Positions 34,766-38,430 are shown, counted from the first letter of the stretch. The stretch is 64,000 bases of DNA from a virus (IMGVR_UViG_3300036772_000425:10924-74923), one strand, 5' to 3'. Notes: generated from the letters alone by a model not told the origin. Numbers and translations: made by a program.

Positions 34766-35821
34766 ATGAACCCAGTGAGGGTTCGGGACCCCATCACGGA
34801 GAGTGAGATGCACAATTTCGGCGTTTTTGTTGGTCGTTTCCAACCCTTTCACACCGCGCACCTCGATACGTTGCGTTTCGCCCTTCGTAAGGTGGAACAA
34901 CTGATCATCGTAGTCGGGAGCGACAACCGAGCTCGGACCGTCAAGGATCCTTGGAGCTCCGCAGAGCGGATTGCCATGATCCGTAGCTGTCTCAGCAACG
35001 AAGAACGCCTGCGTGTAGCCTTCGTGTCCGCCAAGGACTACCTCTATAACGACAACATGTGGATCGCAGAGATCCAACGCGCCGTCAAGGCGCTGGTCGG
35101 ATCCTCCAAGGATGTTGTCCTGATCGGGCACAAGAAGGATGCCAGCAGTTTCTACCTGAACTTGTTCCCACAGTGGGAGTTCATCGACTCAGAGGTTGTC
35201 GCGCCCAACGTCGGTGCAACGAAGGTCCGTGAGCTGATGTTCAGCCTGGACAAGATCGGGGTGAGGGCATGCCTGCCTCCCAACGTCTTCGCTCTGATCC
35301 AGGAGTTCATGGAGACAGATGAGTTCAAGCGTCTCTACGAGGAACACCATCACATCCAGAACTACCGAGCACAGTGGGCGGATGCTCCTTTCCCGCCCAC
35401 TTTCAACACCGTCGATTCGGTTGTCATCTGCAGCGGCCATGTCCTCGTCGTCCGCCGGCGCTGTGCTCCCGGGAAGGGATTGATCGCCCTTCCGGGCGGG
35501 TTCCTCAACGTTGATGAAAGGATCATCGACGGTTGCCTTCGGGAGCTGAAGGAAGAGACTGGGATCAAGGTGGCAACGCAGGAGCTTCGAAAGCTCATCG
35601 TGGACAACAAGGTCTTCGATCACCCGGGACGTTCGCTGCGGGGTCGGACGATCACGCATGCAGTGTGCATCAACCTCAGTCGGGGTGAGCTGCCAACTGT
35701 CAAGGGCATGGACGATGCCGACAAGGCCTGGTGGATGCCGTTGGACACCGTCTACGAGAATGAATCGTCGTTCTTCGAGGACCATTTCCACATCGTGAAC
35801 TACTTCATCAACAGGGTTTGA
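34766..35821 (+). CDS. natV: Bifunctional NMN adenylyltransferase / Nudix ADP-ribose pyrophosphatase (NadM-Nudix, NatV-like)
   Basis: AGGAGG RBS then ATG 34766. FGVFVGRFQPFHTAHLDTLRFAL (NadM (H/T)xGH-type nucleotidyltransferase). C-terminal Nudix box ALPGGFLNVDERIIDGCLRELKEETGIKV. Confidence 0.85.
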   Translation: MNPVRVRDPITESEMHNFGVFVGRFQPFHTAHLDTLRFALRKVEQLIIVVGSDNRARTVKDPWSSAERIAMIRSCLSNEERLRVAFVSAKDYLYNDNMWIAEIQRAVKALVGSSKDVVLIGHKKDASSFYLNLFPQWEFIDSEVVAPNVGATKVRELMFSLDKIGVRACLPPNVFALIQEFMETDEFKRLYEEHHHIQNYRAQWADAPFPPTFNTVDSVVICSGHVLVVRRRCAPGKGLIALPGGFLNVDERIIDGCLRELKEETGIKVATQELRKLIVDNKVFDHPGRSLRGRTITHAVCINLSRGELPTVKGMDDADKAWWMPLDTVYENESSFFEDHFHIVNYFINRV

Positions 35822-36060
35822 CCATGGCATGTACACACAGGAACGTGCAGCAGTACACGGAATGTTGCCTAGATTGCGGCGCCAACATCTATGAGACGGA
35901 GGCAGAGCGTAGGGTTCGTCTTCTCAAGGAGATCGATGCGCTTAGCTCTCAGGTCAACAAGAGCGAAAACGATCGTCTGGAAGACACTCGAGATGAGCTG
36001 CTTCGTAGGCTCCGGGTTGAACCAGACCCTCAGGACGGCGGTCAATCAGGCGGTTGGTAG
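35818..36060 (+). CDS. Small Cys-rich (zinc-ribbon-like) protein
   Basis: 80 aa: MACTHRNVQQYTECCLDCGANIYETEAERR..., then a coiled, acidic tail. Sits between the two NAD-salvage genes. Confidence 0.4.
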   Translation: MTMACTHRNVQQYTECCLDCGANIYETEAERRVRLLKEIDALSSQVNKSENDRLEDTRDELLRRLRVEPDPQDGGQSGGW

Positions 36061-36117
36061 GTTAGAAAACGCCGGATCGGACCGGAGAGGTCCTTGCTGG
36101 CATCACGGAGAGTGAAA

Positions 36118-37500
36118 ATGATCGATCATAACATCATCCTCGACACTGACAGTTACAAGGCCAGCCACTGGCTGCAGTACCTGCCCAACACCACCAGCGT
36201 CTTCTCGTACATCGAGAGCCGCGGCGGGCGCCATGATCACACGGTCATGTTCGGGCTGCAGTACTACCTGTACCGGTATCTCCACCAGAGCATTAGTGCC
36301 CTTGACATCAAGGAGGCTGAGGCATTCTTCCAGGTGCATGGCGAACCCTTCAATAGGAAGGGTTGGGAACATGTGTTGGAGGCGCACAAAGGAAAGTTGC
36401 CCCTGAAGATCAGGGCGGTGCCGGAAGGGTGCGTGATCCCGACCCACAATGCTCTGGTCACCGTTGAGAACACGTGTCCGGATTGTTTCTGGCTCACCAG
36501 CTGGGTCGAGACCATGCTTCTCAGGATCTGGTATCCCATCACGGTCGCGACGGAGAGCCGTCACATCAAGGGCATCATCAAAGGCTGGTTGGAGAAGACC
36601 TCCGACGACCCGGCTGCCGAGCTTCCATTCAAGCTTCACGACTTCGGCTCCCGTGGGGTGTCCAGCAAGGAATCGGCCGAGATCGGTGGTGCGGCCCACC
36701 TCGTCAACTTCATGGGCAGTGATACAATCGCCGGCGTCCTGATGGCCAATCGCTACTACGACTCCAAGATGGCGGGATTTTCGATCCCAGCTGCTGAGCA
36801 CTCAACCATCACCTGTTGGGGGCGTGAACATGAGGTCGATGCGTATAGGAACATGCTGAAGCAGTTCGCAAAGCCCGGTTCCCTTGTCGCAGTTGTCTCT
36901 GACTCCTACGACATCTTCAACGCATGTTCGAACCTGTGGGGTGGTGAGCTGAAGCAGGCTGTGATCGACTCGGGCGCGACCATCGTGATCCGACCCGATT
37001 CAGGTGACCCTGCCACCGTCGTTCGAACCTGCCTGGAGCTGCTCGACGCAAAGTTCGGCAGCACCCTGAACTCGAAGGGGTACAAGGTCCTGAACCACGT
37101 TCGGGTGATCCAGGGAGATGGGATCAATGCAGACTCGATCGAGAAGATCCTGTTCATGGCGACGAACGCCGGGTTCAGCGCAACCAACATCACGTTCGGG
37201 ATGGGAGGAGCGTTGTTGCAGCAGCACAACCGCGACACCCAGAAATTCGCCATGAAGTGCAGTCATATCGTGTCGGACGGCAAGGGCATCGATGTCTTCA
37301 AGGATCCTGTGACCGACAGCGGCAAGCGCAGCAAGCGTGGTCGGTTGGATCTGGAGGTTTTCGAGGGCCGTTACACCACCGTCAAGCTCAACGATGGACA
37401 GGATCGTGCTCCGTATTCCATCATGCAGACCGTCTTCGAAAACGGGAAAGTGACCAAGGAGTACACTCTGGAAGAGGTACGCCACAACGCTCGGATCTGA
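36118..37500 (+). CDS. nadV: Nicotinamide phosphoribosyltransferase (NAMPT/NadV)
   Basis: MIDHNIILDTDSYKASHWLQY...FGLQYYL...DFGSRGVSS...MGSDTIAG...PDSGDP...VIQGDGIN..., full-length NAMPT with hallmark motifs. GGAGAG RBS upstream. Confidence 0.9.
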   Translation: MIDHNIILDTDSYKASHWLQYLPNTTSVFSYIESRGGRHDHTVMFGLQYYLYRYLHQSISALDIKEAEAFFQVHGEPFNRKGWEHVLEAHKGKLPLKIRAVPEGCVIPTHNALVTVENTCPDCFWLTSWVETMLLRIWYPITVATESRHIKGIIKGWLEKTSDDPAAELPFKLHDFGSRGVSSKESAEIGGAAHLVNFMGSDTIAGVLMANRYYDSKMAGFSIPAAEHSTITCWGREHEVDAYRNMLKQFAKPGSLVAVVSDSYDIFNACSNLWGGELKQAVIDSGATIVIRPDSGDPATVVRTCLELLDAKFGSTLNSKGYKVLNHVRVIQGDGINADSIEKILFMATNAGFSATNITFGMGGALLQQHNRDTQKFAMKCSHIVSDGKGIDVFKDPVTDSGKRSKRGRLDLEVFEGRYTTVKLNDGQDRAPYSIMQTVFENGKVTKEYTLEEVRHNARI

Positions 37501-37510
37501 AAGGAGATCG

Positions 37511-37945
37511 ATGGGTTACCAAGCGCACAAGATCATCGATGGTCTGTACCAAGGGGGCGCGCCCCCTACGGGAGATGCTCTACAAAAAGCAGGGGTCGAT
37601 GTCCTGGTTCTCTGTGCCGCGAGCATCCAGGATGTTGATTCCTACAAGAACATCCTTGTCATCCCCGCGCCGGGCGACGACGATCCTCGTCCCAGCCGGC
37701 TCAAGCTGTTCATCGACACCTGGCGTGATGCAGCGCACCAAGTTGCCGGGCACGTCAAAGCAGGACGAAAGGTGCTGGTAACCTGCCGTGCTGGGCAGAA
37801 CCGTTCTGGGTTGGTCGTGGGGCTGGCCCTTCGAGAACTGACCGGTTGGGATGGTGCGAAGATCGTTGATCTGATCGTCCGATCACGGCCACATGCCCTC
37901 AACAACCAGAGCTTCGCCAAGTACATCATCAGGAATTTCCCATGA
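37511..37945 (+). CDS. Cys-based protein tyrosine/dual-specificity phosphatase
   Basis: VLVTCRAGQNRSGLVVGLAL is a CX5R P-loop (C-RAGQN-R-S). AAGGAG RBS upstream. 144 aa. Confidence 0.7.
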   Translation: MGYQAHKIIDGLYQGGAPPTGDALQKAGVDVLVLCAASIQDVDSYKNILVIPAPGDDDPRPSRLKLFIDTWRDAAHQVAGHVKAGRKVLVTCRAGQNRSGLVVGLALRELTGWDGAKIVDLIVRSRPHALNNQSFAKYIIRNFP

Positions 37946-38430
37946 TAGAGATCGTCGGTGACGCTACCCGTCCCATCGCACCAGGTAACAAGATCATTGT
38001 GCATGTTTGCAATGACGTGGGAGCATGGGGCGCAGGCTTCGTCCTCGCCCTTTCGTCACGTTGGAAAGAACCTGAAGAAAGCTACCGTTCCTGGTTCAAG
38101 GAACAGGCCAACCAGGATGAATGGCCCAAGTTGCAGCTCGGTGAGACGATCTTCGTGCCAGTAGAGCCCGAGATCACCGTGGCGAACATGGTGGCCCAAC
38201 ACGGTATCGGTCTGATTTCTGGCTCGCCACCGATCAGGTACGATGCCTTAGAAGAGTGCCTACGCGATGTCGCACGATGGGCACGAGATTGGGACCATGC
38301 ATCGGTGCACATGCCGCGCATCGGCTGTGGGCTCGCGGGCGGCACCTGGCGAGAGATCAAGCAGATCGTGCTTCGATCGTTGGAGGGCGTGGAGACGTAC
38401 GTCTACGACCTTCCAAAGAACCAGCCTTGA
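37942..38430 (+). CDS. Macro-domain protein (ADP-ribose binding/hydrolase)
   Basis: IIVHVCNDVGAWGAGFVLALS matches the macro-domain N-terminal glycine-rich ADP-ribose pocket (IVNAAN...GGGV..AI). 162 aa. Start overlaps the phosphatase stop (ATGA). Confidence 0.65.
   Translation: MIEIVGDATRPIAPGNKIIVHVCNDVGAWGAGFVLALSSRWKEPEESYRSWFKEQANQDEWPKLQLGETIFVPVEPEITVANMVAQHGIGLISGSPPIRYDALEECLRDVARWARDWDHASVHMPRIGCGLAGGTWREIKQIVLRSLEGVETYVYDLPKNQP

What the first reader, a model, noticed from the sequence alone, without database searches (positions are those of the whole stretch)
34766..38430. NAD+-reconstitution pair (NMNAT-Nudix + NAMPT) physically extended by a Cys-phosphatase and a macro domain
NAMPT (36118..37500) plus NadM-Nudix (34766..35821) is the two-enzyme route from nicotinamide to NAD+. 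It is long known in KVP40-type phages (NadV/NatV) and is now understood to counter NAD+-depleting defences (TIR/SIR2/SEFIR NADases). Here the pair is immediately followed by a CX5R phosphatase (37511..37945) and a macro domain (37942..38430). The small genes overlap or abut (ATGA junctions), which suggests one co-translated unit. Macro domains bind or hydrolyse ADP-ribose derivatives such as ADPR-1''-phosphate, O-acetyl-ADPR and protein/DNA ADP-ribosyl marks. A PTP/DUSP-type phosphatase could dephosphorylate ADPR-phosphates or nucleotide second messengers. The four genes could therefore form an extended 'NADase-product clean-up and NAD+ rebuild' module that destroys ADPR-derived immune signals (Thoeris-type gcADPR/His-ADPR, ADPR-phosphates) or reverses DarT-type DNA ADP-ribosylation while restoring NAD+. 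A zinc-ribbon mini-protein (35818..36060) sits between the two salvage enzymes. I am not aware of the phosphatase+macro addition having been described as part of this pathway.
Basis: partly seen in the sequence, partly recalled or inferred. Interest (0 to 1): 0.75.

Follow-up and report, generated by a model that had tools for sequence, protein, structure and literature searches.

The report
Phage NAD+ rebuilding genes plus neighbours
A giant uncultured phage carries the known two-enzyme NAD+ rebuilding pathway next to an ADP-ribose-removing macro enzyme and a small phosphatase, but comparison with about 40 related phages shows that the phosphatase is an older resident of the site and that the four genes are not one fixed unit.

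Summary

The "four-gene module" reading is only partly supported. In this roughly 340-kb jumbo-phage lineage the DSP is ancestral to the locus. It persists in at least 8 relatives that lack both NARP2 and macro at the locus. It is missing from 5-6 relatives that keep NARP2 genes plus macro. It occurs next to NARP2 nowhere else.

Macro and NARP2 co-occur in most inner-clade relatives, but on a tree this is mostly shared ancestry and their losses are uncoupled.

A macro accessory to NAD+ reconstitution is already published for NARP1 (Adpp, 2026 preprint). I found that about 30% of unrelated NARP2 operons in IMG/VR carry an Adpp-like macro between NadM and NAMPT. I could not find this described.

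The window's macro is equidistant from DarG and Poa1p, so its substrate (ADP-ribosylated DNA or ADPR-1''-phosphate) is unresolved. The verdict is a known pathway in a variable accessory island, and a modestly new variant.

The parts
34766..35821 (+). NadM-type bifunctional NMN adenylyltransferase / Nudix (ADP-ribose pyrophosphatase-type) enzyme; NARP2 step 2
   Evidence: NCBIfam NF003791 425 bits (cutoff 409). Pfam CTP_transf_like and NUDIX. phrog_395 at 2.5e-72. Nudix box intact (translation).
35824..36060 (+). 78-aa small protein with a C-x-H...C-x2-C motif and a helical C-terminal half; function unknown
   Evidence: No family hit. Homologues only in L005 and L132/L171, with C3, H5, C16 and C19 conserved. 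Start at the ATG at 35824.
36118..37500 (+). Nicotinamide phosphoribosyltransferase (NAMPT/NadV); NARP2 step 1
   Evidence: NCBIfam NF006629 662 bits (cutoff 405). Pfam NAPRTase and NAMPT_N. phrog_448 at 8e-157.
37511..37945 (+). Minimal atypical dual-specificity (Cys-based) phosphatase; a backbone gene of the lineage, substrate unknown
37942..38430 (+). Macrodomain (ADP-ribosyl)hydrolase of the SCO6735/Bt_1257 subclass of ALC1-like macrodomains
33439..34500 (+). UDP-glucose dehydrogenase; upstream backbone gene. In relatives without NARP2 it directly abuts the DSP.
   Evidence: Pfam UDPG_MGDP_dh_N and central domain. The UDPGDH and DSP ORFs overlap or abut in L038 and L024.
38633..38953 (+). 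Conserved 106-aa protein of unknown function (neighbour)
   Evidence: No family. 45-67% identical copies next to PTH2 in most relatives.
38968..39312 (+). PTH2-like (peptidyl-tRNA hydrolase 2 fold) protein; backbone neighbour of the DSP
   Evidence: Pfam PTH2 at 8.6e-7, 29.6 bits (cutoff 23). Present in nearly all relatives and directly upstream of the DSP in the basal clade.
39309..39659 (+). tRNA-binding domain protein (MetG C-terminal / CsaA-like); variable neighbour
   Evidence: Pfam tRNA_bind at 4.2e-22. NCBIfam metG_C_term at 2.8e-31.
39656..40288 (+). HD_4 (RelA/SpoT hydrolase-type) phosphohydrolase; variable neighbour
   Evidence: Pfam HD_4 at 5.7e-13. NCBIfam spoT_relA N-terminal region at 6e-15.
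40294..40444 (+). Two tandem tRNA genes with 8-nt anticodon loops (ACUUCAAA / ACUUCAAG); neighbours, not part of the NAD+ pathway
   Evidence: Rfam tRNA 51.7 and 51.5 bits. ARAGORN gives no assignable anticodon. The syntenic slot in relatives is described.

Best explanation
The window is part of a roughly 340-kb uncultured jumbo-phage genome. Between two backbone genes of a large glycan-biosynthesis region (UDP-glucose dehydrogenase upstream, PD-(D/E)XK nuclease and glycosyltransferases downstream) lies a variable accessory island. It holds several self-sufficient functions that are neighbours, not one machine.

1. NARP2. NAMPT makes NMN from nicotinamide and PRPP. NadM adenylylates NMN to NAD+, and its Nudix domain splits ADP-ribose. 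This restores NAD+ when host NADases (TIR, SIR2, SEFIR, RES) deplete it. The step is inferred from strong orthology to the tested KVP40 pathway.

2. A catalytically competent SCO6735-type macrodomain that removes ADP-ribose from a 1''-linked substrate. Going by its closest characterised homologue, the most likely substrate is ADP-ribosylated thymine or uracil in nucleic acid (DarT-type attack on phage DNA), or ADP-ribosylated protein. Hydrolysis of the soluble NADase product ADPR-1''-phosphate is almost as likely. The fold, family and catalytic residues are shown. The substrate is inferred.

3. A minimal DUSP-type cysteine phosphatase that pre-dates both of the above at this locus. It most resembles protein-directed DUSPs. 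Its role is independent of NAD+ salvage. The independence is shown by comparative genomics. The substrate is inferred.

The tight spacing and ATGA overlap reflect the general packing of this co-directional array.
For: - Family assignments.
- Genome size and lineage: the proteins' contigs are 340,433, 345,630 and 324,468 bp.
- All four genes are present together in about 14 distinct relatives (L001, L005, L011, L013, L015, L018, L019, L035, L090, L093, L105, L108, L124, L148).
- DSP alone in at least 8 (L007/8, L020, L023, L024, L032-34, L038).
- NARP2 and macro without DSP in L117/118, L123/125 and L132. NadM and macro only in L091 and L099.
- NARP2 with DSP but without macro in L026 and L170. 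NARP2 only in L174. DSP and macro without NARP2 in L021.
- The GT1 tree places the DSP-only genomes basally and shows uncoupled later losses.
- NAMPT alleles are mosaic (71-73% against 44-50% identity) and do not follow the backbone tree, so cassettes are exchanged at this site.
- The content between UDPGDH and PD-(D/E)XK varies: methyltransferase, PanD, DUF3307, HD_4, tRNA_bind, tRNAs.
- About 58 of 80 SCO6735-like macro loci in IMG/VR lie outside this lineage. Only one of them (L114) has NARP2 within 10 kb.
- SCO6735 removes T-ADPr from DNA, neutralises DarT in vivo and removes U-ADPr from RNA and Glu-ADPr from protein (PMC9411070, PMC13036486, PMC5087735).
- A phage macrodomain that counters DarTG2 is known: AdfM (PMC13309987).
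- The DSP family is essentially confined to phage-like contigs. There are 3 MAG hits in 185,579 species genomes and none in cultured phages.
Against: - Within the inner clade most genomes keep NARP2 and macro together.
- In unrelated phages a different (Adpp/Poa1p-like) macro sits inside 27 of 75 NARP2 loci (20 of 67 clusters). That argues that a macro activity is useful to NARP2.
- Its mobile loop (GIGLISGSPP) lacks the lysines that SCO6735 uses for DNA (K89, K94).
- DSP-to-macro adjacency recurs in one unrelated context (L009/L042). DSP and macro lie within 3 kb in L047 and L050. This hints at a DSP-macro link that my explanation treats as coincidence or remnant synteny.
- No biochemical data exist for any protein of this lineage.
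Confidence: 0.5

Rival explanations
1. "NARP2 with an associated macro". The macro is a functional accessory of NARP2, analogous to Adpp in NARP1-AP. It converts ADPR-1''-phosphate (the product of RES-type NAD+ phosphorolysis) or another 1''-substituted soluble ADPR derivative to ADPR. The Nudix half of NadM then splits ADPR into AMP and ribose-5-phosphate. This detoxifies the product and returns carbon to PRPP, which NARP2 consumes. The DSP is a bystander.
For: - Adpp macro with NARP1 is experimentally established.
- An Adpp-like macro lies between NadM and NAMPT, on the same strand, in 27 of 75 unrelated NARP2 loci. That is 20 of 67 clusters at 95% NAMPT identity and 11 of 42 at 85%.
- SCO6735-like macros lie near NARP2 in two further lineages (L114, L223).
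- NADAR, another ADPr-processing domain, occupies the same slot in Synechococcus phage B3 and in L114 (noted by Iyer et al. 2022).
- N24, Q86 and the G-loop are invariant across both macro groups.
- Macro is kept next to NadM even where NAMPT and DSP were deleted (L091, L099).
Against: - NARP2 alone already overcomes aRES in the published assay.
- No ADPR-1''-P activity is reported for the SCO6735 subclass in the papers read.
- In the lineage, macro was lost with NARP2 retained (L170, L174, L026), and NARP2 was lost with macro retained (L021).
- Outside the lineage SCO6735-like macros are not enriched near NARP2, 1 of about 58.
- Here the macro is separated from NARP2 by the DSP.
Confidence: 0.3
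2. All four genes are one co-translated "clean-up and rebuild" module in which the DSP dephosphorylates ADPR-phosphates or nucleotide second messengers, and the macro degrades ADPR-derived immune signals.
For: - Conserved order NadM, NAMPT, DSP, macro in about 14 relatives.
- ATGA overlap of DSP and macro.
- DSP-macro proximity in a few unrelated contigs (L009/L042, L047, L050).
- A 2H/CPD-like gene next to the DSP in 4 of 43 unrelated groups.
Against: - The DSP is ancestral and persists without NARP2 and macro.
- NARP2 and macro persist without the DSP.
- NARP2 is unlinked from the DSP in the 324-kb genome (L008/L214).
- No DSP lies near any other NARP2 locus or in any cultured phage.
- The fold is closest to protein DUSPs.
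- Four-base overlaps are common along the whole array.
- The DSP has its own strong ribosome-binding site.
Confidence: 0.1
3. The DSP belongs functionally with its truly conserved neighbours (PTH2-like protein, tRNA-binding protein, SpoT-type HD hydrolase, unusual or suppressor-type tRNAs). It acts as a protein or tRNA-end phosphatase that counters kinase- or pyrophosphokinase-based host toxins aimed at translation. NARP2 and macro were simply inserted beside it.
For: - PTH2-like and DSP are adjacent in both basal and derived genomes.
- A tRNA slot with 8-nt-loop, CUA or UUA anticodons is syntenic across the lineage.
- An HD_4 RelA/SpoT-type hydrolase is in the same run.
- In unrelated phages the most frequent DSP neighbour is a calcineurin-like (PPP-type) phosphoesterase, in 6 of 43 groups. 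This is consistent with protein dephosphorylation.
Against: - The evidence is purely contextual.
- The PTH2 match is weak: 29.6 bits, and NCBIfam below cutoff.
- Neighbour frequencies are low.
- No kinase target is identified.
Confidence: 0.25

Closest known systems
NARP2 (Nampt + bifunctional Nmnat-Nudix; Vibrio phage KVP40 NadV/NatV; Osterman et al. 2024, bioRxiv 10.1101/2024.02.11.579819)
   Same: The same two enzyme families, adjacent and co-directional, with scores above the NCBIfam equivalog cutoffs. NadM precedes NAMPT, as in most NARP2 loci sampled from IMG/VR.
   Different: Only 58-73% (NAMPT) and 34-67% (NadM) identical to the other uncultured versions sampled, and 64-68% at DNA level to cultured phages. 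It is embedded in a glycan-biosynthesis region of a jumbo phage. A small CHCC protein lies between the two genes. Activity is untested.
NARP1-AP: Adps + Adpp (macro ADPR-1''-P phosphatase) + Namat (Osterman et al. 2026 preprint, 10.64898/2026.01.28.702374)
   Same: A macrodomain gene physically associated with a phage NAD+ reconstitution pathway. The macro shares the Asn, Gln and Gly-loop with Adpp, and His21 aligns with the mutated Adpp His24.
   Different: The pathway here is NARP2, which does not use ADPR as a substrate and already defeats aRES alone. The macro is only about 24% identical to Adpp (E 8e-12) and belongs to the SCO6735/Bt_1257 subclass. It is separated from NARP2 by a DSP gene.
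SCO6735 (Streptomyces coelicolor) / Bt_1257 ALC1-like macrodomain hydrolases
   Different: Phage-encoded. The mobile loop lacks the two lysines implicated in DNA binding by SCO6735 (against the sequence). The substrate is untested.
AdfM (phiKZ gp104), phage DarG2-like macrodomain that removes DarT2 ADP-ribosylation (PMC13309987)
   Different: AdfM keeps the DarG catalytic lysine (K78). The window protein has Gln at that position, as SCO6735 does. No direct comparison with the AdfM sequence was made.
Atypical dual-specificity phosphatases (DUSP14/15/22/28, Tk-PTP, PRL)
   Same: A minimal DSP fold of about 145 aa with a CX5R(S) P-loop and an upstream general-acid Asp.
   Different: Thr instead of His precedes the Cys, and the P-loop is C-x-A-G-Q/L-N-R-S-G. 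At most 23% identical to any solved structure. The family is confined to phage-like contigs.

Membership tests
NARP2 | A Nampt-clade nicotinamide phosphoribosyltransferase (not the Namat clade) | tested here: met
   NCBIfam NF006629 662 bits against a cutoff of 405. Pfam NAMPT_N and NAPRTase.
NARP2 | An NMN adenylyltransferase (NadM/NatV type, with Nudix domain) encoded close to Nampt | tested here: met
   NF003791 425 bits against a cutoff of 409. The gene ends 297 nt upstream of NAMPT on the same strand.
NARP2 | Rebuilds NAD+ from nicotinamide, PRPP and ATP and overcomes NAD+-depleting defence | not testable with these tools
   Needs enzyme assays and plaque assays.
NARP1-AP-type accessory phosphatase (Adpp) | A macrodomain gene within two genes of the reconstitution pathway | tested here: met
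   The macro is the second gene downstream of NAMPT. The pathway here is NARP2, not NARP1.
NARP1-AP-type accessory phosphatase (Adpp) | Membership of the Poa1p/Adpp-like macro group | tested here: not met
   24% identity, E 8e-12 to Adpp. The Adpp HMM scores lineage macros 51-58 bits against 212-250 bits for the SCO6735-like HMM. The PDB sequence hit to Poa1p covers only residues 10-49.
NARP1-AP-type accessory phosphatase (Adpp) | ADPR-1''-phosphate phosphatase activity | not testable with these tools
   Requires purified protein and ADPR-1''-P.
SCO6735/Bt_1257 subclass of ALC1-like macrodomains | High sequence and structure similarity to SCO6735 and Bt_1257 | tested here: met
SCO6735/Bt_1257 subclass of ALC1-like macrodomains | Gln in place of the TARG1/DarG catalytic Lys, plus His24, Val25, Asn27 and Gly128 equivalents | tested here: met
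   Q86, H21, V22, N24 and G130 in the HMMER alignment to 5E3B, mapped with PMC9411070. Q86 and H21 are at least 90% conserved and N24 and G130 are invariant in 28 homologues.
SCO6735/Bt_1257 subclass of ALC1-like macrodomains | Longer mobile loop with Lys89/Lys94 that aids DNA binding | tested here: inconclusive
   The loop length is kept but the lysines are absent in the window protein (GIGLISGSPP). They are variable among homologues.
DarG / AdfM-type anti-DarT macrodomain | Catalytic Lys (DarG K80, AdfM K78) | tested here: not met
   The position is Gln86.
DarG / AdfM-type anti-DarT macrodomain | Removes ADP-ribose from DarT-modified ssDNA | not testable with these tools
   Shown for the homologue SCO6735, not for this protein.
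Cys-based dual-specificity phosphatase (DSPc) | CX5R(S/T) P-loop and general-acid Asp on a DSP fold | tested here: met
   Every partial combination occurs. The DSP is ancestral and independently lost at least 4 times. Macro and NARP2 losses are uncoupled.

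The most novel reading that the evidence does not exclude
NARP2, like NARP1, has a previously undescribed accessory ADP-ribose-processing enzyme. Different phage lineages have recruited non-orthologous enzymes next to NadM and NAMPT: Adpp/Poa1p-like macro in about 30% of sampled NARP2 operons, SCO6735-like macro here and in L114 and L223, and NADAR in cyanophage B3. Together with the Nudix half of NadM this would close a recycling loop from NADase or RES products back to the pathway's own substrate: ADPR-1''-P to ADPR to AMP and ribose-5-P to PRPP. It could also remove a toxic or inhibitory ADPR derivative. In this lineage the DSP might add a second dephosphorylation step.
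Probability: 0.3. Interest if true: 0.65.

Novelty: new variant of a known kind. Interest (0 to 1): 0.42.

Why it matters
NAD+ depletion and ADP-ribosylation are among the commonest bacterial anti-phage strategies, and phage NAD+ reconstitution pathways are a young field (2024-2026).

The published logic says NARP2 needs no helper, because it does not use ADP-ribose. If the macro and NARP2 are functionally linked, and in particular if the widespread NadM, macro, NAMPT operons seen in IMG/VR are real units, that logic is incomplete. ADPR-1''-phosphate or related products would then matter to the phage beyond being a lost substrate.

The negative result is also useful. Tight spacing and plausible biochemistry made a convincing four-gene story that comparative genomics does not uphold for the phosphatase. 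This is a caution for operon-based inference in phage accessory islands.

Tried and rejected
- Single-protein scans for the DSP in IMG/VR and in cultured phages found nothing. The family was reached only through the large protein collection and a metagenome pattern scan.
- The raw 2x2 association of macro with NARP2 in DSP-anchored loci looks strong: about 11 with both, 2 with NARP2 only, 1 with macro only, about 14 with neither. I rejected it as evidence of coupling after the GT1 tree showed essentially one gain followed by uncoupled losses.
- ATGA overlaps as evidence of a unit were rejected. The same overlaps occur at many junctions of the array.
- The promoter and terminator scan of 33000-41200 gave nothing clearly above shuffles (5 against 3.0±2.0 promoters; 11 against 6.0±2.7 terminator-like sites, none placed after the macro on the + strand). 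It does not delimit an operon.
- The search for cultured NARP2 phages with an adjacent macro failed. DLP_6, Mx1, RTH11 and phi-pp2 (KVP40-type) have none annotated. Synechococcus phage B3 has NADAR instead.
- TGA recoding as an explanation for the UCA-like tRNAs was rejected. 27 of 32 confidently placed genes end in TGA.
- PADLOC gave only a weak DarG hit for the macro and nothing for the DSP.
- Genome contigs gave only three MAG hits for the DSP and no informative cellular context.

Full report
**1. The observation**

The region is part of a long, tightly packed, co-directional gene array on the + strand.

- NadM-Nudix (34766-35821) and NAMPT (36118-37500) score above the curated equivalog cutoffs of NCBIfam: 425 against 409 bits, and 662 against 405 bits. 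Both have the expected Pfam domains.

The DSP/macro ATGA overlap is real. The DSP has its own AAGGAG ribosome-binding site. The NadM/small-ORF junction is TGAccATG, not ATGA. Four-base overlaps are frequent all along this array, so they do not define a four-gene unit.

The 78-aa ORF has a conserved C-x-H...C-x2-C motif, but only in three or four relatives.

**2. What genome this is**

The window has no close relative among 50,697 cultured phage records. Only NAMPT aligns, at 64-68% DNA identity. The window's own proteins are on record from a 340,433-bp contig, and relatives come from contigs of 345,630 and 324,468 bp. It is therefore an uncultured jumbo phage.

The surrounding 15.9-44.4 kb encode a large glycan-biosynthesis set: GT2 and GT1 glycosyltransferases, a methyltransferase, GDP-mannose 4,6-dehydratase, an epimerase, a DegT aminotransferase, an acetyltransferase and UDP-glucose dehydrogenase. 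The genes of interest lie between UDP-glucose dehydrogenase and a PD-(D/E)XK nuclease with two GT1 genes.

**3. Comparative genomics of the locus**

I collected three sets of loci and scored all of them by tblastn with the window's proteins:
- DSP-anchored loci from metagenomes;
- macro-anchored loci from IMG/VR;
- NAMPT-anchored loci from IMG/VR.

In the syntenic lineage every combination occurs.

| Combination at the locus | Loci |
|---|---|
| All four genes (about 14 distinct loci) | L001, L005, L011, L013, L015, L018, L019, L035, L090, L093, L105, L108, L124, L148 |
| DSP only, both flanks covered | L007/8, L020, L023, L024, L032-L034, L038 |
| NARP2 + macro, no DSP | L117/118, L123/125, L132 |
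| NadM + macro only (NAMPT and DSP deleted together) | L091, L099 |
| NARP2 + DSP, no macro | L026, L170 |
| NARP2 only | L174 |
| DSP + macro, no NARP2 (a methyltransferase lies between them) | L021 |

In the 324-kb genome the DSP locus lacks NARP2.

A neighbour-joining tree of the backbone GT1 protein puts the DSP-only genomes at the base. NARP2 and macro appear in one inner clade. After that the DSP is lost at least four times. Macro is lost in one subclade that mostly keeps NARP2. NARP2 is lost twice.

NAMPT alleles fall into two types (71-73% and 44-50% identity to the window) that do not follow the backbone tree. The cassette is therefore exchanged by recombination at this site.

Two conclusions follow. 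The DSP is a backbone gene that pre-dates NARP2 and macro here. The striking raw co-occurrence of macro and NARP2 is mostly shared ancestry.

**4. The DSP outside the lineage**

- There is no homologue in cultured phages, and there are only three MAG contigs among 185,579 species genomes.
- No DSP lies within 10 kb of any of 75 unrelated NARP2 loci. Two hits, at 20 and 17.5 bits, are noise-level.
- In 43 dereplicated unrelated DSP contexts the most frequent neighbour is a calcineurin-like phosphoesterase (6 of 43). A 2H/CPD-like protein follows (4 of 43), and then an SCO6735-like macro (3 of 43: adjacent in L009/L042, within 3 kb in L047 and L050). These are weak signals.
- Its most constant neighbour in the lineage is a PTH2-like gene, together with a tRNA slot.

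**5. The macro**

It belongs to the SCO6735/Bt_1257 subclass of ALC1-like macrodomains. The residues shown by mutagenesis to matter in SCO6735 (His24, Val25, Asn27, Gln85, Gly128; PMC9411070) align with H21, V22, N24, Q86 and G130. They are invariant or nearly so in 28 homologues.

SCO6735 removes thymine-linked ADP-ribose from DNA, neutralises DarT in cells, removes uracil-linked ADP-ribose from RNA, and removes Glu-linked ADP-ribose from protein.

Two phage macrodomain functions are now published:
- AdfM is a DarG2-like enzyme of phiKZ-type phages that strips DarT2 marks from DNA (PMC13309987).
- Adpp is a Poa1p-like ADPR-1''-phosphate phosphatase that sits in 15% of NARP1 operons and lets NARP1 overcome the RES-domain system aRES (preprint 10.64898/2026.01.28.702374).

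The window protein is neither:
- It has Gln where AdfM and DarG have Lys.
- It is only about 24% identical to Adpp.
- It shares the Asn, Gln and Gly-loop core with Adpp.
- Its mobile loop lacks the lysines SCO6735 uses for DNA.

Its substrate therefore cannot be decided in silico.

**6. A wider pattern**

In the NAMPT-anchored sample, 27 of 75 NARP2 loci from unrelated phages carry an Adpp-like macro gene between NadM and NAMPT on the same strand. That is 20 of 67 clusters at 95% NAMPT identity, and 11 of 42 at 85%.

SCO6735-like macros lie near NARP2 in two more lineages (L114, L223). NADAR fills the slot in Synechococcus phage B3 and in L114. The NADAR association was noted by Iyer et al. 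2022.

I found no text describing a macro with NARP2. The word does not occur in the NARP1/2 or NARP3 papers, and the 2026 preprint searched only NARP1 operons. That preprint shows NARP2 alone defeats aRES, so the benefit of a macro to NARP2 would need another rationale. Examples are feeding ADPR to the NadM Nudix domain for ribose-5-phosphate and PRPP recycling, or detoxifying ADPR-1''-P.

Conversely, outside the lineage only about 1 of 58 SCO6735-like macro loci has NARP2 nearby. That is what chance would give for jumbo phages.

**7. Verdict**

- The NARP2 core is an ordinary member of a known pathway.
- The DSP is a real enzyme but is not part of that pathway by any comparative criterion.
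- The macro is a competent ADP-ribosylhydrolase. Its link to NARP2 is plausible but unproven.

I favour independent anti-defence and auxiliary genes sharing a variable island (0.5) over a dedicated NARP2 accessory role for the macro (0.3). The full four-gene model gets 0.1.

The finding is a modestly new variant of a known kind. The most interesting by-product is the recurrent, apparently undescribed macro gene inside NARP2 operons.

Noticed in passing
window 40294-40365 and 40372-40444 (+); syntenic slot in L001, L005, L007, L011, L018, L020, L021, L090, L108, L117, L170, L174 and others: There are two tandem tRNA genes (Rfam 51.7 and 51.5 bits) with 8-nt anticodon loops, ACUUCAAA and ACUUCAAG. 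ARAGORN cannot assign an anticodon. At the same position, after the PTH2/HD_4 genes, relatives carry "ttca" 8-nt-loop tRNAs, tRNA-Glu(UUC), or suppressor-type tRNAs with CUA (L170, L174, L020) or UUA (L007) anticodons. The genome is not TGA-recoded: 27 of 32 genes end in TGA.
   Followed up: partly
IMG/VR loci such as L194 8179-11359, L235 7947-11380, L208 6626-11383, L204 876-4066: Unrelated NARP2 operons carry an Adpp/Poa1p-like macro gene between NadM and NAMPT: 27 of 75 loci, or 20 of 67 clusters at 95% NAMPT identity. I did not find this described. The published Adpp association is with NARP1 only.
   Followed up: partly
window 38968-40288 (+): A run of translation-related accessory genes: a PTH2-like protein, a stand-alone tRNA-binding domain (MetG C-terminal/CsaA-like) and a RelA/SpoT-type HD hydrolase. 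The two odd tRNAs follow directly. This may be a counter-measure to tRNA- or alarmone-based host toxins.
   Followed up: no
window about 15888-44395 (+): A large glycan-biosynthesis island: GT2 x2, methyltransferase, GT1, GDP-mannose 4,6-dehydratase, epimerase, DegT aminotransferase, acetyltransferase, UDP-glucose dehydrogenase, GT1 x2. NARP2, DSP and macro are embedded in it. Several of these enzymes are NAD(P)-dependent.
   Followed up: no
L008 (306160-322597) and L214 (70673-92076) of the same 324,468-bp contig, sample 3300044712: In this relative the DSP locus lacks NARP2, and a NadM-NAMPT pair lies about 230 kb away with no macro or DSP within 10 kb.
   Followed up: partly
NAMPT genes of L018, L035, L090, L124, L132, L170 against L001, L005, L011, L013, L015: Two NAMPT allele types (71-73% against 44-50% identity to the window) are distributed incongruently with the backbone GT1 tree. 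This indicates repeated cassette exchange at one site.
   Followed up: partly
L253 4476-5006 (Synechococcus phage B3 gp47); L114 6202-6666: A NADAR-domain gene sits between NadM and NAMPT in a cultured cyanophage. L114 has NadM, then NADAR, then an SCO6735-like macro, then NAMPT, with other genes between them.
   Followed up: partly
window 32762-33505 (+) and 19072-19707 (+): NUMOD3 and I-HmuI-like homing-endonuclease-type ORFs are inserted in the glycan gene array. The first lies directly upstream of UDP-glucose dehydrogenase.
   Followed up: no
window 6993-8429 (-), 9533-11194 (-), 11237-11839 (-): A PIN-PhoH fusion protein, a DEAD_2/Helicase_C_2 helicase and a ClpP protease lie on the opposite strand. 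Four upstream ORFs of 464-574 aa (1097-6941, -) have no Pfam match.
   Followed up: no
L062 10762-11691 (-) and five other unrelated DSP loci; L047 10443-10901 (-): Distant homologues of the DSP are most often flanked by a calcineurin-like (PPP-type) phosphoesterase (6 of 43 contexts). Sometimes the neighbour is a 2H/CPD-like protein (4 of 43).
   Followed up: partly
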